This document shows, piece by piece, positions 1 through 4,792 of a stretch of 29,820 bases of DNA. Position numbers and translations under genes: made by a program. The DNA lies in assembly GCA_036398075.1 (NCBI GenBank), contig DASWHT010000265.1:1-29820 (forward strand), read 5' to 3'. Origin of the DNA: Candidatus Binatia bacterium. GTDB lineage: Bacteria > Desulfobacterota > Binatia > UBA9968. Under the pieces are notes generated by a model. That model did not search any database and was not told the DNA's origin. It saw nothing but the letters and a program-made list of their open reading frames with translations. Each line of letters begins with the position of its first letter. The first letter of the stretch is position 1.

Positions 1-709
1 CGATCTCTTCGCTCGGCTGCATGGTGATGCCTTTTTCGGGAGCGATGCGGAACAGATACTGCGCGGGATCGAGGGCTGTGCTGCGCATTTTTTCGATGGT
101 GATGGTGCGCACGAAGCGGCTGTTGGCCAATTCCAACTCCAAGACGATTGTGCCGGCGACAAGATACTCTTCGATGCCGCGGGTGCCTCGGCCTAGGGAT
201 TGGGAAGTGACAAGGGTGGTGATTTCGGGGTTCTTTTGCAGTGACGCGATGAGCATGCGCGCCTGGTCTTGAGCTTTCGACGGGGAATCGGCGGCGTGAA
301 TCAATGGCCCAACGGGATCGATCACCACCCGCGTCGCACCACTCTTGGCGATATGGTTGTTGAGCTCGACGATGATTTTTTGGAGATCGTTTTTCGAACT
401 AATGTCGCTCACCCGCGCAGTGATCAGAGCGGAGGCGTCCAGGATCAGCAAGTCCTTCAGGTCGACATGTGGGGTCAAGTCCCAGCCCAGCGACGCCGCC
501 TGGTCCACCAGGTCGGCGGGTTTTTCGTCGATGGTGACGTAGAGCGCTTTTTCGCCGTCTTTCAGCGCCTGGTGGAGAAATTGCAGCGCGAAAATGGTCT
601 TGCCGGTGCCGGGCTCGCCAAGCGCTAAATAGGTCTTGCCCCGTCTGAAACCGCCGTCGAGCAGGGCATCCAGTTCGTGAATACCGGTGGATACGCGTTT
701 TTCGTTCAT
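1..709 (-). CDS. KaiC/RAD55-like single-domain RecA-fold ATPase, 3' end truncated by the window edge
   Basis: Absent from the ORF track (no stop in window). Manual translation from ATG 709: MNEKRVSTGIHELDALLDGGFRRGKTYLALGEPGTGKT (Walker A)...LYVTIDEKP...RVVIDPV (Walker B)...EEYLVAGTIVL...RTITIEKMRST (KxR finger); open to base 1 (236 codons). Confidence 0.9.
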   Translation of the reverse strand, partial: MNEKRVSTGIHELDALLDGGFRRGKTYLALGEPGTGKTIFALQFLHQALKDGEKALYVTIDEKPADLVDQAASLGWDLTPHVDLKDLLILDASALITARVSDISSKNDLQKIIVELNNHIAKSGATRVVIDPVGPLIHAADSPSKAQDQARMLIASLQKNPEITTLVTSQSLGRGTRGIEEYLVAGTIVLELELANSRFVRTITIEKMRSTALDPAQYLFRIAPEKGITMQPSEEI

Positions 710-806: not shown

Positions 807-890
807 TTCTCACTACAAAGCGCAGGAAGGCCATGAAGCGATGGATATTTTTGCTCTTAAGCTTCGTGCTCTTCGCGTCCTTCGTGATAA
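807..890. repeat. Degenerate REP-like palindrome built from 9-nt CACGAAG-type units
   Basis: Left arm cactacaaagcgcaggaaggccatgaag (811-838); right arm cttcgtgctcttcgcgtccttcgtg (862-886). Imperfect complementarity; intergenic. Confidence 0.55.
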
Positions 891-971
891 AGTTTGCGCT
901 TTCATTTTTGGTTGCGTCTCCGCGCGTGTGACCGTCTCCCGATTCTAGGAGAAGGAAGGGGTTAGGGCGCC

Positions 972-3878
972 TCAGGGCGCGCTTCTGCGCACTTTCCACC
1001 GCCCGCTTCGCTCCTTAAGCTCCGCCCGCACGCGCTCGATTTCCGCCGACATCCTTTCCTGGAGTTTGACGAGTTGTTCTTTTTCACTCGGAGGCTGAGT
1101 TGCTGCCGGGTTTTCCCCCTTGGCGATTGGTTCCGGCGCTTGCGTGGCACTTGCCTCTGGCGGCGCCGACACGAACTGAACGGCGACTGGTGCCGAGTTT
1201 TGAGCTCCCTGAATGGCGGCGCTCAACTGCGCCACCCGTTGGATCACGGATTGAGATCTATCCTTTAGTTCTTTCAGCTCGGCATCGCGGCTTTCGAAGA
1301 CGCTGAATTTCTGCGTCACCTGCTGGTTCAACTCATGAATCTTGGCGCTCAAGTTTTCTTCCAGGCAGCGCAGCGCCGGATCGGAAGATGTCATCACAGC
1401 GGGCCGTTGGAGGAGATCCGTTTTGAGCTTGGCCATTTCGGTTGTAAACCCGGCGATGATCTGTTCGGCTTCTTGGCTGCGCTCGGCGTCGCGCCTGTCG
1501 AGGAGAACCAGTTTCTCTGCCACCTGTTGTTGCGATTCTTGAATCTTCGCGCCGAACAATTCTTCGAGGCCGCGCAGGGCGGCGTCCGCGGTGACTTCCG
1601 GGCGCTCGTTCAGGCCTGATTTAAGTGCGGTAATTTCGCCCTGCAGCACGGCGATCTCATTATGCAGGGCCTCTAGGGTCTCATCGGCTTGCCGTGCGCG
1701 CTCGGCGTCCCGGCTGTCGATGAGCGTGAATCTCTCCGCCAGTTGTTGATCGAGTTCGTGAATCTTGGTCCGGAGCGATTCCTGAATGGTATACGACAAA
1801 CTTTCGGCGGACGGAAGACGGCTCTGCTGCTGCACGAAATCCGCTCTAAAAGTTCCCAGCTCAGCATTGAGGCGGTTTAAGGCTTGTTCTGTTTGCTGGA
1901 CGCGCTCGCTGTCGCGGCTGTCATAGAGGCTGAATTTTCGGGTTACTTGTTCTTCAAGTTGGCTCAAGTTGGCGCCAAGGGTTTCTTGCAAGCCGCGAAT
2001 GATCGATTGGGAAGGGGGGGGCGGGCGTTGATCGAACGATGCTTTGAAAGCACTGAATTCGCCGCAGAGATCGGTGAGGCTCTGCTCGACGTGTTGGTGG
2101 GTTGCGGTGGCCCGACCCTCTGCCTGGCGGCCCTGAGATTCCAACTGGCTTGTTCGCTCGCTGAGCGCGCCAAATTCCGAGCGGAGTTGGGCCCATTGTT
2201 CGTGGTCGTAGTCTTGGGACTGAAATTTCTCTTTGAGCTGTGCTTCTAGTTCCTGAATGCTTGCCTTGACGGTTTCTTCCAAACGCTCAAGACGGGAGTG
2301 ACGGTATTCGATCTGGCTCTGGCGTTCGCTGAGGCGCACTTGCATCGCGCTCAGCTCGGCGCTGAAAGACTCGCGGAGACCCTTGCCCCAGTGGTCGAAC
2401 CCTTCCCGTTCGACGGCCAGTTGGCGCTGGAGTTCGTCAATTTTGACGCCGAGCTTGTGCTCGATTTCGGACATCCGCGCCTCGGGCAGACGAAAGGCGC
2501 GCTGTTGCTCGTTGAGTTCGGCTTTGAGCGCCGTGATTGCGCTTTTGAAGCCCTCCTCCAATTCCTCGGCGTGCTTGGCGCTGGCGTCAGCCCGGGCCTG
2601 CACCCTTTGAGCCACAGACTCTACCTGGCCGATGCGCTGCGCCAGCGTCTGAATTTCCGGTTTAAGACGAGCCAGTCCTTCATGGCCGCTGGCGAGGGCG
2701 CGTAGCTTCTCGCCGTTACGCTCCTCTTGCTCCGTGAGTTTAGCGCCTAGACTCGCTCCGAGTTCCCTGGCGCGGTTTTCTTGTTCGGCGTCGTGGCTCG
2801 CGAGGAGCATGAATTTTTGCGCTGTCAGGTGTTGCCATTCCTCGAGCTTGGCGCGCAGCGACGCTTCGAGGTCTTCGATGGCCAGCTGGCGCGTCTGAGC
2901 CTCGCCGAGCTTGGCGTGCAGCGCCGCCAGTTCCGTTGCGATTTTCTCGCGAAAGTCTGACGCTAAACTCACTTCACCCGGCACCAGCGCTTGGATCTCA
3001 CGCGACTGCGACTCTGTTTTCGTCAAGCGCTCCGCGAGCATGGCTAGCTCGGAGTCGAGCTGTCCGAGCCGTGCGTCGCGCCCGAGCTGAACATGATGTT
3101 CCTGCGCCAGCCGGCTTAGAATTTCTTCGATCTTGTCACCCAGGCTCTGGGTAATTTCATCGAGCAGGGAATCGGGCCGGCGGCCGTTGCGCTGTTGGTC
3201 ATTGAGTTCGGCGAATACCGCTTTTAGCGCGACGATTTCTCCCTTGAGGTTTTCGGCGGTGTGTTCGAGTTGCTGAGCATTGCGCGACGCGAAGGATCGG
3301 GTTTGCCAGGCAGTTGACTCAGCTTGACCGACCCGTTCAGTGAGCGACTGTGCCTCAGATTTGAGATGACGCAACTCTCCCTGGGCGGCGCGGACACCGC
3401 CAAGCTCTTCACGTATTTTATCTTCCAAAGCTCGGATCTGGGCGCCGAACGATTCTTCTAGCCTTTCGAATCCCGAGTAGCGAGCTTCCAGTTCCGTTTG
3501 TCGACCGCTGAGTTGCGCCCGCAAAACGCCTAGCTCATCTTGAACAAACTCTTTGGTGGCGTCGCCAGGAGCCTTTGCGCCTTCGATCCGCGTCATGCGG
3601 TCAGAATAGACGGAAATCTCGGATTTAAGATGGTTAAGCTCCGCCTCGCGGCTCTCTAGTATCTGGTGCTGCAATTCGGCGATCTGACCGACCAGCGTAG
3701 TTTCCAAATGTTTGATCTGGTCGACCCGTTGCGTTTCGCCGGCGGCAAAGGACTGAGCGAGCCCAAGATCGGCTTCTGCCTTTCTTACGAGCCAATCGAA
3801 CAACGTATCTTTGCCACTACCCATCCGTCCTCCGTCGCGGTTGGACGGAGTCTCGCTTTTTTCGTCAAACAATCCCAC
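972..3878 (-). CDS. 968-aa internally repetitive coiled-coil protein of unknown function
   Basis: Long ORF; GTG start with GAGGAG RBS. Glu/Gln/Leu/Ala/Arg-rich heptads; no TM segment, signal peptide or NTPase motif seen. Four tandem 68-73 aa repeats (KFxxxDxRDxE). Confidence 0.88.
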   Translation of the reverse strand: MGLFDEKSETPSNRDGGRMGSGKDTLFDWLVRKAEADLGLAQSFAAGETQRVDQIKHLETTLVGQIAELQHQILESREAELNHLKSEISVYSDRMTRIEGAKAPGDATKEFVQDELGVLRAQLSGRQTELEARYSGFERLEESFGAQIRALEDKIREELGGVRAAQGELRHLKSEAQSLTERVGQAESTAWQTRSFASRNAQQLEHTAENLKGEIVALKAVFAELNDQQRNGRRPDSLLDEITQSLGDKIEEILSRLAQEHHVQLGRDARLGQLDSELAMLAERLTKTESQSREIQALVPGEVSLASDFREKIATELAALHAKLGEAQTRQLAIEDLEASLRAKLEEWQHLTAQKFMLLASHDAEQENRARELGASLGAKLTEQEERNGEKLRALASGHEGLARLKPEIQTLAQRIGQVESVAQRVQARADASAKHAEELEEGFKSAITALKAELNEQQRAFRLPEARMSEIEHKLGVKIDELQRQLAVEREGFDHWGKGLRESFSAELSAMQVRLSERQSQIEYRHSRLERLEETVKASIQELEAQLKEKFQSQDYDHEQWAQLRSEFGALSERTSQLESQGRQAEGRATATHQHVEQSLTDLCGEFSAFKASFDQRPPPPSQSIIRGLQETLGANLSQLEEQVTRKFSLYDSRDSERVQQTEQALNRLNAELGTFRADFVQQQSRLPSAESLSYTIQESLRTKIHELDQQLAERFTLIDSRDAERARQADETLEALHNEIAVLQGEITALKSGLNERPEVTADAALRGLEELFGAKIQESQQQVAEKLVLLDRRDAERSQEAEQIIAGFTTEMAKLKTDLLQRPAVMTSSDPALRCLEENLSAKIHELNQQVTQKFSVFESRDAELKELKDRSQSVIQRVAQLSAAIQGAQNSAPVAVQFVSAPPEASATQAPEPIAKGENPAATQPPSEKEQLVKLQERMSAEIERVRAELKERSGRWKVRRSAP

Positions 3879-3935
3879 TTGATTGGCTCCTCGGTTTTTA
3901 AGATTTGGGCGGATACTTGCGCCAGCTACATGTAG

Positions 3936-3967
3936 TTATCGGTCACAGACAAGCCAAACTTGTGCCA
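3936..3967 (-). promoter_or_regulatory. Overlapping candidate sigma54 and sigma28 promoters for the coiled-coil gene
   Basis: Minus strand TGGCAC-AAGTT-TGGCT (3967-3952, GG-N10-GC) overlaps CAAG-N15-ACCGATAA (3962-3936). Confidence 0.5.
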
Positions 3968-4408: not shown

Positions 4409-4792
4409 ATGTCCAAAAATAGGGGCAACAAAAGAATTCTGTTGGTGGATGATTCGGAAACCGTTCTCATGTTGGAGCGGATGATTCTCAAGGGGGGCAG
4501 TTACGAACTGGCGATGGCAAAAGACGGCAAAGAAGCGGTTGCCAAGGCGCTGGCGCTGAGACCGGATTTGATTCTGATGGACGTGATCATGCCGAAGATG
4601 AACGGGTTCGACGCGATACGCGAGTTGCGTCGACGCCCCGAGACCCGGTCGATTCCCATTCTTATTGTAACTACGAAGGGGGAAGAAGAAAGCATGGAAA
4701 CCGGCTACCTGAGCGGTTGTAATGACTACATCACCAAGCCCATTGACAGCCTGGAGTTGCTCACCAAGATACGAAGCTTTCTTGGTACGTAA
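4409..4792 (+). CDS. Single-domain response regulator (CheY-like receiver)
   Basis: ILLVDDS, LILMD (phospho-Asp) VIMPKMNG, VTT, YITKP; no output domain. Confidence 0.92.
   Translation: MSKNRGNKRILLVDDSETVLMLERMILKGGSYELAMAKDGKEAVAKALALRPDLILMDVIMPKMNGFDAIRELRRRPETRSIPILIVTTKGEEESMETGYLSGCNDYITKPIDSLELLTKIRSFLGT

What the first reader, a model, noticed from the sequence alone, without database searches (positions are those of the whole stretch)
972..3878. 968-aa nested-repeat coiled-coil protein, candidate polar or cytoskeletal scaffold for motility
Seen: four tandem repeats whose core Asp codons lie at 1911, 1707, 1488 and 1284 (spacing 68, 73, 68 aa; KFSLYDSRDSE, RFTLIDSRDAE, KLVLLDRRDAE, KFSVFESRDAE), plus a dispersed fifth copy near 2790 (KFMLLASHDAE). 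A second repeat type occurs three times (LKSEAQSLTERVGQAES, LKPEIQTLAQRIGQVES, LRSEFGALSERTSQLES). Pro-containing hinges (RRPD, RLPE, RPPPP, RLPS, RPE, RPA) break the helix periodically. The tail is a low-complexity linker plus a short helix ending SGRWKVRRSAP. No TM or enzyme motif. Inference: a segmented filament or hub protein (functionally like TipN, AglZ or crescentin, with no homology claimed), divergent from the che operon and preceded by flagellar-type promoter motifs.
Basis: partly seen in the sequence, partly recalled or inferred. Interest (0 to 1): 0.66.

Follow-up and report, generated by a model that had tools for sequence, protein, structure and literature searches.

The report
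Rod protein paired with KaiC-like ATPase
This is a real gene for a long, repeat-built helical rod protein that, in uncultured soil bacteria (Binatia), nearly always sits in front of a small KaiC-type ATPase gene and usually beside a chemotaxis operon, even in relatives without flagella, so it looks like an undescribed accessory of chemosensory signalling rather than a flagellar part.

Summary

The protein has about 10 diverged copies of a 65-70-aa helical unit. These lie between a conserved N-terminal module and a conserved C-terminal helix that ends in a basic R-W-K tail. Relatives (362-1189 aa) keep both ends and vary the repeat number.

- A single-domain KaiC(CI)-type ATPase gene follows in 22 of 22 loci that have downstream DNA.
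- A sigma54-type promoter precedes the gene in 17 of 22 loci.
- A cheY-cheD-cheA operon lies divergently in 18 of 23 loci.

In 90 genomes of the same family, the protein tracks that CheA (24 with both, 7 with the rod only, 2 with CheA only) but not FliM (7 with both, 24 rod only, 9 FliM only). Five 92-99% complete genomes carry the module without FliM, FlhA or flagellin.

A paralogous rod + KaiC-like + ClpB operon exists, also in this genome.

No Pfam, NCBIfam or PDB relative was found, and no paper was found describing it. This scan found the same module earlier on other DNA (e1-4896232).

Function is inferred from gene context only.

The parts
972..3878 (-). Gene for the 968-aa repeat-built helical rod protein (P0001)
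   Evidence: Open frame. There are 47 homologues down to 23% identity. The protein is all-helical in AlphaFold2. No Pfam or NCBIfam family reaches its cut-off.
3952..3967 (-). Sigma54-type promoter TGGCAC-N4-TTGGCT, with the -12 GC about 75 nt upstream of the start codon
   Evidence: Read directly. The same motif lies at the same distance in 17 of 22 homologous loci, including loci from genomes without flagellar genes.
3936..3942 (-). Sigma28-like -10 element CCGATAA
   Evidence: Present here and in the closest relative (L041), but not in more distant loci. Weak evidence only.
3887..3892 (-). Shine-Dalgarno GAGGAG, 8 nt before the GTG start
   Evidence: Read directly.
3693..3812 (-). Conserved N-terminal module, aa 23-62 (KD.LF.WLV.RA.ADLGLAQA...LE.TL)
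   Evidence: Invariant or near-invariant columns W29, L30, D37, L58, E59 and L62. It is kept in all forms from 362 to 1189 aa. A profile of it finds about 45 clusters in 1.84 billion proteins with the module at the protein's N-terminus.
1179..3716 (-). Repeat array, aa 55-900: about 10 diverged helical units separated by Pro/Gly hinges
   Evidence: hhalign self-comparison. Helix breaks in the model fall at the hinges. Hydrophobic period is 3.55-3.6 residues. The number of units differs between relatives.
1179..2021 (-). Four well-preserved tandem units, aa 620-690, 691-760, 761-828 and 829-900
   Evidence: Profile E 1e-8 to 1e-15 between units. They share 28-31% ungapped identity.
2364..2411 (-). 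Central invariant block, aa 490-505 (EREGFDHWGKGLRESF)
   Evidence: Invariant columns E490, R491, E492, W497 and G500 in the alignment of long forms.
1086..1196 (-). Pro/Ala-rich flexible linker, aa 895-931
   Evidence: pLDDT below 50 and no secondary structure. Composition checked.
975..1085 (-). Conserved C-terminal module, aa 932-968: a helix (LQERMS.EIERVRAELKE) followed by the basic tail SGRWKVRR
   Evidence: The largest run of invariant columns, 935-964. It is kept in nearly all forms. A similar helix plus RRW...KRRWK tail ends the paralogous rod proteins that also precede KaiC-like genes.
2..709 (-). Downstream single-domain KaiC(CI)-type ATPase gene, cut by the contig end about 2 codons before its stop
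   Evidence: PF06745 at E 2.6e-59. The orthologue is 238 aa. The best solved relative is the KaiC CI domain, at E 1e-46 to 1e-50, with Walker A GEPGTGKT and a D-E pair at the catalytic Glu-Glu position. It follows the rod gene in 22 of 22 loci with downstream DNA.
808..925 (.). Dispersed ~118-bp repeat inserted between the two genes (not part of the module's function)
   Evidence: Copies at 71-83% identity lie on at least 10 other contigs of the same genome. There is no Rfam match and no unusual fold.
4409..4792 (+). Divergent cheY, the first gene of the cheY-GAF-cheD-cheA-MCP-cheW-cheR-cheB operon
   Evidence: Pfam. The divergent arrangement is conserved in 18 of 23 loci.

Best explanation
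SHOWN. The gene encodes an acidic (net charge -37) all-alpha segmented rod. Its parts are a conserved N-terminal helix module, about 10 diverged 65-70-aa helical units separated by proline hinges, a flexible Pro/Ala linker, and a conserved C-terminal helix that ends in a basic Arg/Trp/Lys tail.

It is the first gene of a sigma54-type two-gene unit. The second gene is a single-domain KaiC(CI)-type ATPase. The pair belongs to one family of Candidatus Binatia. It has a paralogue there (rod + KaiC-like + ClpB). It is most often placed head-to-head with a cheY-cheD-cheA chemosensory operon, and it is gained and lost with that operon.

INFERRED.
- The rod oligomerises as a coiled coil of lineage-specific length.
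- One conserved end, most likely the C-terminal helix and R-W-K tail that it shares with the paralogous rods, docks the hexameric KaiC-like ATPase (or the membrane).
- The other end contacts a component of the neighbouring Che pathway or its target.
- The ATPase's nucleotide or phosphorylation state switches this assembly, as ArlH and CirA do for archaeal motility machines.

On this reading the pair is an accessory scaffold and switch of the chemosensory pathway. It is usable with flagella (this genome) or without them (aflagellate relatives that have type IV pili). It is not a flagellar structural or landmark protein.
For: Anatomy:
- Motif positions, repeats and helices.
- The short form is modelled as helices 3-88 and 97-263 (pLDDT above 90 over about residues 110-240), then a disordered linker and a C-terminal helix.
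- The two end modules are conserved while the length varies from 362 to 1189 aa.

Partner:
- A KaiC-like gene lies immediately downstream in 22 of 22 loci with DNA, at 54-97% identity, while the rod itself is only 24-90% identical.
- It also follows in metagenome contigs of 23-63% identical homologues, once with a 10-nt overlap.
- Paralogous rods with a similar tail precede KaiC-like genes in L063-L066.
- A repeat-sharing rod with a different C-terminal tail and a hydrophobic N-terminal segment (P0047) has no KaiC-like neighbour.

Che link:
- A divergent che operon is present in 18 of 23 loci.
- In 90 genomes: rod and CheA-orthologue together 24, rod only 7, CheA only 2, neither 57.
- In some genus-g3 genomes the KaiC-like orthologue stays at the same locus while che and the rod gene are both missing.

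Independence from flagella. The che operon is complete in those genomes.

Other:
- The sigma54-type promoter is conserved.
- The KaiC-like protein keeps Walker A and acidic catalytic residues.
- Analogy: ArlH/FlaH interacts with the coiled-coil ring protein FlaX (PMC5019145 abstract). The KaiC-like CirA represses archaeal motility (PMC10983859).
- Short metatranscriptome contigs 92-97% identical lie inside both genes.
Against: - No physical interaction, oligomer or localisation has been tested. AlphaFold2 gives only secondary structure (pTM 0.23-0.26).
- The pair also occurs without a neighbouring che operon. It sits upstream of pilM-pilN in genus g105 and upstream of clpB in genus g100.
- The paralogous operon has no motility neighbours.
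- Seven genus-g3/g105 genomes keep the KaiC-like orthologue without any detectable rod gene, so the ATPase does not strictly need it.
- The co-occurrence counts come from related genomes and are not independent events.
- The RNA evidence is thin. DNA carry-over cannot be excluded, and the contigs come from relatives.
Confidence: 0.45

Rival explanations
1. Output adaptor to type IV pili, working like cyanobacterial HmpF. The Che pathway controls where the rod (with its ATPase) sits, and the rod switches the pilus motors on at one pole. In this flagellated genome it would act in parallel with flagellar control.
For: - Aflagellate carriers keep a complete che operon next to the pair and have PilM.
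- In genus g105 the pair lies directly upstream of pilM-pilN on the same strand.
- HmpF is a coiled-coil protein that is often encoded next to chemotaxis-like operons, whose localisation is controlled by that system, and which is needed for pilus assembly (PMC12288463).
- The NCBIfam HmpF model gives a weak hit.
Against: - The HmpF hit is 18.1 bits against a cut-off of 200, which is coiled-coil noise level.
- PilM is present in 88-90 of 90 genomes, so co-occurrence says nothing.
- The pilM adjacency is limited to one genus.
- HmpF has no KaiC-like partner in the text read.
- The CheA here has a flagellar-type P1-P3-P4-P5 layout with cheD and cheX, and in this genome it is embedded in a flagellar cluster.
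Confidence: 0.2
2. A general KaiC-like signalling or stress module with no direct role in chemotaxis. The rod is a lineage-specific cofactor of a KaiC-family ATPase (for example a timer, energy sensor or proteostasis regulator), and the che neighbourhood reflects shared sigma54 regulation or locus history.
For: - The paralogous operon rod + one or two KaiC-like genes + ClpB + a membrane protein is found in this genome and in relatives.
- In genus g100 the che-type rod itself sits in that ClpB locus.
- KaiC-like genes at 42-50% identity are present in 86 of 90 genomes, often with receiver/kinase genes and ClpB.
- The pair persists without che in 7 genomes.
Against: - The che-linked subfamily has its own N-terminal module, which is not detectably shared with the paralogue.
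- It is gained and lost together with the che operon.
- More distant members (23-35% identity) again sit inside flagellar or che clusters.
Confidence: 0.2
3. One reading: a polar landmark or cytoskeletal filament (TipN-, AglZ- or crescentin-like) that serves flagellar motility.
For: In this genome, and in several metagenome contigs, the pair lies inside a che-flagellar supercluster. It has a sigma54-type promoter, as many flagellar genes do. It has a segmented rod anatomy.
Against: - 24 of 31 carrier genomes show no FliM, and five near-complete ones also lack FlhA and flagellin.
- 9 FliM-bearing genomes of the family lack the protein.
- It has no receiver domain (AglZ/FrzS), no TM (TipN), and no IF-type Pfam match for this protein.
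Confidence: 0.08
4. An SMC/Rad50-like or phage tape-measure-like protein mis-seen as novel. This is what the automatic names of homologues suggest ('chromosome segregation ATPase', 'SbcCD ATPase subunit').
For: Source annotations of homologues. Sub-threshold hits to SMC models.
Against: - The SMC hit is 36.8 bits against a cut-off of 567 and covers only the coiled-coil arm of the model (698-933 of 1181).
- No ATPase or hinge family was matched by Pfam or NCBIfam.
- No tape-measure family matched the protein and none of the neighbours scanned matched a phage family.
- There is no PDB sequence relative.
Confidence: 0.02

Closest known systems
HmpF (Nostoc punctiforme; NCBIfam NF038350, 'pilus motility taxis protein')
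   Same: A long SMC-like coiled-coil protein with no enzyme domain. It is typically encoded next to a chemotaxis-like operon, and its behaviour is controlled by that operon (PMC12288463). The rod here is likewise encoded next to a che operon, including in aflagellate genomes.
   Different: There is no detectable homology (18.1 bits against a cut-off of 200). HmpF is described as cyanobacteria-only and has no KaiC-like partner gene in the text read. A pilus link for the Binatia protein is untested.
ArlH (FlaH) with ArlX (FlaX) of the crenarchaeal archaellum motor
   Same: A single-domain KaiC-like ATPase works with a coiled-coil scaffold protein inside a motility machine (PMC5019145 abstract). 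ArlH's phosphorylation state controls its oligomerisation and binding (10.1101/2021.03.19.436134 abstract).
   Different: The partner ATPase here is far closer to the KaiC CI domain (E 1e-46 to 1e-50) than to FlaH (E 2.7e-4). The rod has no membrane anchor. The host is a bacterium with flagellar and/or type IV pilus genes, and no ArlI/ArlJ were seen in the window.
CirA of Haloferax volcanii (a stand-alone KaiC-like regulator in the arl cluster)
   Same: A KaiC-like ATPase gene sits in a motility gene cluster, is divergently transcribed, and acts as a regulator rather than a motor part (PMC10983859).
   Different: It is archaeal. No coiled-coil partner is described in the text read. It acts on arl transcription.
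FrzS / AglZ (Myxococcus xanthus)
   Same: Long coiled-coil proteins tied to a Che-like (Frz) pathway and to polarity of surface motility (PMC9811614 abstract; the rest is my own knowledge).
   Different: They carry an N-terminal receiver domain. None is found here. There is no KaiC-like partner.
The same module noted earlier by this scan in another Binatia genome (e1-4896232)
   Same: A sigma54-promoted operon of a repeat-built coiled-coil protein plus a KaiC-type ATPase, next to chemotaxis or flagellar genes. I reproduced this independently here.
   Different: That note concerns an 838-aa homologue. The points added here are independence from flagella, the ClpB-linked paralogue, the pilM adjacency and the shared R-W-K tail.

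Membership tests
SMC / Rad50 (TIGR02168, TIGR02169, NF041035) | Whole-protein score above the curated cut-off, with N- and C-terminal ABC ATPase heads and a hinge | tested here: not met
   36.8, 26.6 and 15.7 bits against cut-offs of 567, 729 and 1000. The match covers only the coiled-coil arm of the model. No ATPase or hinge family was matched by Pfam or NCBIfam.
HmpF (NF038350) | Score at or above 200 bits to the equivalog model | tested here: not met
   18.1 bits, E 7e-4.
HmpF (NF038350) | Encoded beside a chemotaxis-like operon | tested here: met
   A divergent cheY-cheD-cheA operon is present in 18 of 23 loci.
HmpF (NF038350) | Dynamic polar localisation, and required for type IV pilus activity | not testable with these tools
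   Needs microscopy and genetics.
FrzS / AglZ | N-terminal response-regulator receiver domain fused to the coiled coil | tested here: not met
   No PF00072 hit in P0001, although the same scan finds it in the neighbours.
TipN-type polar landmark | N-terminal transmembrane segments followed by a coiled coil | tested here: not met
   The maximum Kyte-Doolittle 19-aa window is 0.79.
Crescentin / intermediate-filament-like | IF-type rod domain (PF00038) and self-assembly into filaments | tested here: inconclusive
   P0001 has no PF00038 hit at E<=0.01. Some short homologues carry a precomputed weak PF00038 hit. Polymerisation is not testable here.
Phage tape-measure protein | Tape-measure family match and a phage tail gene neighbourhood | tested here: not met
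   No such Pfam hit. The neighbours are che, flagellar and KaiC-like genes.
ArlX/FlaX-ArlH pair | The partner ATPase is an ArlH/FlaH orthologue | tested here: not met
   NCBIfam ArlH gives 52.6 bits against a cut-off of 215. PDB FlaH gives E 2.7e-4, against KaiC CI at 1e-50.
ArlX/FlaX-ArlH pair | The coiled-coil protein is encoded with, and binds, a single-domain KaiC-like ATPase | tested here: inconclusive
   Adjacency holds in 22 of 22 loci. Binding is untested.
Binatia rod + KaiC-like module (defined by this scan: e1-4896232 and this report) | N-terminal module KD.LF.WLV.RA.ADLGLAQA at the protein's start | tested here: met
Binatia rod + KaiC-like module (defined by this scan: e1-4896232 and this report) | C-terminal helix plus a basic (S/N)GRWK tail | tested here: met
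Binatia rod + KaiC-like module (defined by this scan: e1-4896232 and this report) | Single-domain KaiC-type ATPase gene immediately downstream on the same strand | tested here: met
   window:2-709(-).
Binatia rod + KaiC-like module (defined by this scan: e1-4896232 and this report) | Sigma54-type promoter TGGCAY-N4-TTGGCT about 85 nt before the start codon | tested here: met

The most novel reading that the evidence does not exclude
The rod and its KaiC-type ATPase are the missing output device of a flagellar-type Che pathway in bacteria that have lost flagella. They would be a bacterial counterpart of the archaeal ArlH-ArlX arrangement. CheY~P would act on a coiled-coil/KaiC-like complex that gates type IV pilus motors or another polar machine, with the rod's repeat number setting a lineage-specific reach.
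Probability: 0.15. Interest if true: 0.8.

Novelty: new variant of a known kind. Interest (0 to 1): 0.55.

Why it matters
Chemosensory pathways that persist in bacteria without flagella need a target, and for most such systems the target is unknown. Here a complete cheY-cheD-cheA...cheX operon is kept in aflagellate genomes, always beside the same two genes.

That gives a concrete, testable candidate for the output or organiser of the pathway. It would also extend to bacteria the pairing known from the archaellum, in which a KaiC-like ATPase works with a coiled-coil scaffold.

The variable repeat number between two fixed end modules also makes the protein a natural test case for ruler-type or tether-type scaffolds.

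If the link proves to be only regulatory neighbourhood, the result is still a new, cleanly delimited family of partners for single-domain KaiC-type ATPases in bacteria.

Tried and rejected
- **Pfam and NCBIfam scans of the protein.** Only sub-threshold coiled-coil noise turned up: SMC, ASRP, HmpF, PspA, Baculo_PEP_C, CCDC92.
- **PDB sequence search with the family profile.** Only short coiled-coil artefacts, E at or above 7.5e-5.
- **ESM Atlas.** No model is held. The feature hits are its own Binatota cluster plus unrelated helical proteins, all below 0.9.
- **Foldseek of the full-length model against PDB.** Nothing: one hit at E 8.6. No further fold searches were run, because both models are extended helices with pTM 0.23-0.26 and would match any long helix.
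- **Self-BLASTP.** It returned only the diagonal. The repeats needed profile methods.
- **Stacking the four units into one HMM.** The model was mis-registered at 143 columns, so I use it only for the qualitative statement that repeat number varies.
- **Homology between the N-terminal modules of the che-linked rod and the ClpB-linked paralogue.** Not detected. Only the repeat part aligns, E 8.5e-7.
- **PilM co-occurrence.** Uninformative, because PilM is nearly universal in the family.
- **The sigma28-like motif.** Not conserved beyond the nearest relative.
- **The intergenic 118-bp repeat.** No Rfam family and no significant structure.
- **The acidic N-terminal peptide (GLFDE...) as a CheY-docking motif.** I considered this because the peptide is missing in the che-less g105 forms. 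I rejected it as evidence: there are too few independent cases and there is no resemblance to FliM-N.


Full report

window:972-3878 on the minus strand is an open frame of 968 codons. It starts at GTG 3878, 8 nt after a GAGGAG Shine-Dalgarno. The residues right after the start (GLFDE) are conserved in homologues, so this start is preferable to the internal Met19 used by one database record.

- Five KF..(D/E)SRD.E copies at aa 355, 648, 716, 789 and 857, with spacings of 68/73/68 aa.
- Three LK.E...L.ER.GQ.ES copies at aa 172, 405 and 565.
- The six proline hinges.
- The SGRWKVRRSAP end.

This is far beyond chance. A loosened motif occurs five times here; none of 20000 shuffles reached five (mean 0.002). 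The four C-terminal units share 28-31% ungapped identity, against about 8% for random pairs of segments of the same protein.

Profile-profile self-comparison of a 27-sequence alignment (A1) relates the four units 620-690, 691-760, 761-828 and 829-900 at E 1e-8 to 1e-15. It also detects weaker copies with insertions at about 55-130, 134-233, 232-330, 331-463, 464-530 and 530-621.

**2. What does the protein look like?**

- Composition is E, L, A, Q, R and S rich, with net charge -37 and no hydrophobic segment (maximum 19-aa hydropathy 0.79).
- Hydrophobic positions recur every 3.55-3.6 residues, as in amphipathic helices of coiled coils or bundles.
- AlphaFold2 on A1 is of low confidence for tertiary structure (mean pLDDT 59.6, pTM 0.23). 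Its secondary structure is clear: eight long helices (26-100, 105-229, 236-461, 466-617, 623-686, 691-756, 763-823, 834-894) that break at the Pro-containing hinges. A disordered Pro/Ala linker (895-931) and a last helix (932-958) follow.
- A 346-aa short homologue is modelled as helices 3-88 and 97-263, with pLDDT above 90 over about residues 110-240. A disordered linker and the C-terminal helix follow.
- A Foldseek search with the long model gave nothing, as expected for extended helices.

Oligomerisation is inferred, not shown.

**3. The family.**

A word-indexed search of 5.8 billion proteins found 47 relatives (94% to 23% identity). Almost all come from metagenomes. The few with an organism name are Candidatus Binatia or 'Deltaproteobacteria bacterium'. 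The functional names ('SbcCD ATPase subunit', 'chromosome segregation ATPase') are automatic coiled-coil labels.

Pfam, NCBIfam and PDB give only sub-threshold coiled-coil matches.

Forms of 362, 440, 528, about 630, about 965 and 1189 aa all keep two end modules:
- An N-terminal helix, KD.LF.WLV.RA.ADLGLAQA...LE.TL.
- A C-terminal helix, LQERMS.EIERVRAELKE, followed by (S/N)GRWK.

What changes between forms is the number of repeat units.

A profile of the N-terminal module, run against 1.84 billion cluster representatives, finds about 45 clusters with the module at the protein's N-terminus. All further hits match only the repeat part, inside other long helical proteins. In GTDB species representatives the family was found in 4 of 201 genomes sampled from the class, all in the window's own family.

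**4. Neighbours.**

The window is a che-flagellar supercluster. Its genes in order are: cheY, a GAF protein, cheD, cheA, an MCP, cheW, cheR, cheB, a second cheY, cheX, fliM, motAB, fliL, fliP, fliR, flhB, flhA, flhF, flhG, fliA and a rod gene.

The rod gene is divergent from the first cheY. About 260 nt downstream lies a single-domain KaiC-type ATPase gene (window:2-709, cut by the contig end).

That ATPase most resembles the CI domain of KaiC (E 1e-46 to 1e-50). It keeps Walker A (GEPGTGKT) and has Asp-Glu where KaiC CI has its catalytic Glu-Glu. Its similarity to archaeal FlaH/ArlH is only marginal (E 2.7e-4).

I located the window's own Che and KaiC-like proteins by tblastn in 23 homologous loci (metagenome contigs and genome representatives):
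- The KaiC-like gene follows the rod gene in all 22 loci that have downstream DNA. It is 54-97% identical, while the rod is 24-90% identical.
- The cheY-cheD-cheA operon is divergent in 18 of 23 (called genes).
- A 23%-identical 865-aa relative again has the KaiC-like gene, overlapping it by 10 nt, inside a flagellar cluster.
- A near-consensus sigma54 promoter (TGGCAY-N4-TTGGCT) lies at a fixed distance upstream in 17 of 22 loci.

**5. Flagella or chemosensing?**

I compared distributions in 90 genomes of the same taxonomic family.

| Comparison | Both | Rod only | Other only | Neither |
|---|---|---|---|---|
| Rod orthologue vs FliM | 7 | 24 | 9 | 50 |
| Rod orthologue vs this CheA clade (at least 53% identity) | 24 | 7 | 2 | 57 |

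Rod orthologues (matches that include an end module) occur in 31 genomes. FliM occurs in 16.

Five carriers that are 92-99% complete lack FliM, FlhA and flagellin. They still keep the full operon from cheY to cheX beside the pair.

In several genus-g3 genomes the KaiC-like orthologue remains at the same locus, flanked by the same SurE/HSP15 genes. There both the che operon and the rod gene are replaced by enolase and an endonuclease-III-like gene. The rod gene therefore travels with the che operon.

These genomes are related, so the counts are not independent events.

PilM is present in essentially all 90 genomes, so it cannot discriminate. In one genus (g105) the pair sits directly upstream of pilM-pilN with no che operon nearby.

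**6. A paralogous operon.**

The window's genome (contig C362) and relatives carry a second operon: a rod of 1019-1641 aa, one or two KaiC-like genes (42-49% identical to the partner here), ClpB, and a membrane protein. It lies next to the same aminotransferase/glyoxalase/CNNM genes that flank the che-type pair in genus g100, where ClpB also follows.

These paralogous rods share the repeat unit, and they share a C-terminal helix that ends in RRW.....KRRWK. They do not detectably share the N-terminal module.

A third group of repeat-sharing rods has a different C-terminal tail, and its N-terminus carries a hydrophobic, TM-like segment. The one example checked (P0047) has no KaiC-like neighbour.

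The recurring combination 'rod with a basic Arg/Trp/Lys tail, then a KaiC-like ATPase' is the best argument that the two proteins act together and that the C-terminal module is the shared interface. It could instead be a shared membrane anchor. This is inference.

**7. How it most likely works.**

Shown:
- The anatomy of the protein.
- The operon partner.
- The promoter type.
- The attachment to, and co-inheritance with, a che operon.
- The independence from flagella.

Inferred: a coiled-coil oligomer of lineage-specific length carries a KaiC-type hexamer at one conserved end and a Che-pathway or motor component at the other. The ATPase's nucleotide or phosphorylation state switches the assembly.

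The precedents are archaeal:
- ArlH/FlaH with the coiled-coil ring protein FlaX (PMC5019145).
- ArlH autophosphorylation, which controls its oligomerisation and its binding to ArlI (10.1101/2021.03.19.436134).
- CirA, a KaiC-like regulator in the arl cluster that represses motility (PMC10983859).

On the coiled-coil side, the precedent is cyanobacterial HmpF. It is often encoded next to chemotaxis-like operons, and its localisation is controlled by that system (PMC12288463).

I put 0.45 on the che-accessory scaffold/switch reading. I put 0.2 on the narrower pilus-output reading, 0.2 on a general KaiC-module reading with no direct chemotaxis role, and under 0.1 on the flagellar landmark reading.

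**8. Expression.**

Two rRNA-depleted rhizosphere metatranscriptomes contain short contigs (151-281 nt, 92-97% identical). These lie inside the rod gene and the KaiC-like gene and nowhere else in window:1-4900. This is weak evidence: the contigs come from relatives, and DNA carry-over cannot be excluded.

**9. Novelty.**

Full-text searches for KaiC-like plus chemotaxis, coiled-coil or flagellar terms, and for Binatia/Binatota plus motility terms, returned no description of this bacterial pair.

This scan had already noted the same module on another Binatia genome (e1-4896232). My results agree with it and add four points:
- Independence from flagella.
- The ClpB-linked paralogue.
- The pilM adjacency.
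- The shared tail.

I class it as a new variant of a known kind (a coiled-coil scaffold with a KaiC-type ATPase around a motility or chemosensory system). Interest is moderate, because function rests on gene context alone.

Noticed in passing
window:808-925: A ~118-bp dispersed repeat sits in the spacer between the rod gene and the KaiC-like gene. Copies at 71-83% identity lie on at least 10 other contigs of the same genome. There is no Rfam family and no unusual folding energy.
   Followed up: partly
L063:4280-11029 (own genome, contig C362): A paralogous operon: a 1019-aa helical repeat protein ending in ..RRWNMGLFKRRWKA, a KaiC-like ATPase (46% identical to the one in the window), ClpB (875 aa) and a 471-aa membrane protein. 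The same operon, with two tandem KaiC-like genes, is found in L064-L066.
   Followed up: partly
L052-L058, L060 (family relatives): A ~50%-identical single-domain KaiC-like gene is followed by a ~400-430-aa protein that begins with a receiver domain and, in three of the loci (L052, L057, L058), also matches a short stretch of KaiC-like sequence around the P-loop. In most of these loci a ~400-480-aa ORF with a histidine-kinase-like C-terminus comes next, and a ClpB-sized ORF follows in L055 and L057. This looks like a KaiC-centred two-component unit.
   Followed up: no
L025, L026, L070, L071 (genomes G241, G244) and G011, G056, G199: Genomes that are 92-99% complete and have no FliM, FlhA or flagellin keep a complete cheY-cheD-cheA-cheW-MCP-cheR-cheB-cheY-cheX operon. 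Its CheX is 65-66% identical to the one in the flagellated window genome. The pathway's target there is unknown.
   Followed up: partly
L035:9560-13764, L038, L043 (genus g105): The rod + KaiC-like pair lies directly upstream of pilM-pilN on the same strand, with priA divergent. In L043 only the KaiC-like gene is present.
   Followed up: partly
window:12885-13844 and its homologues: The cheY2-cheX pair stays next to the rod gene even where the core che operon is gone (L036, L050). This hints that CheX, or its long N-terminal extension, is part of the same functional neighbourhood.
   Followed up: no
L003:13878-15843 and the no-DNA contigs: In flagellated relatives the pair is followed by a partner-switching set (receiver-SpoIIE phosphatase, STAS, anti-sigma-type kinase) and then flgE, flgD and fliK.
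   Followed up: no
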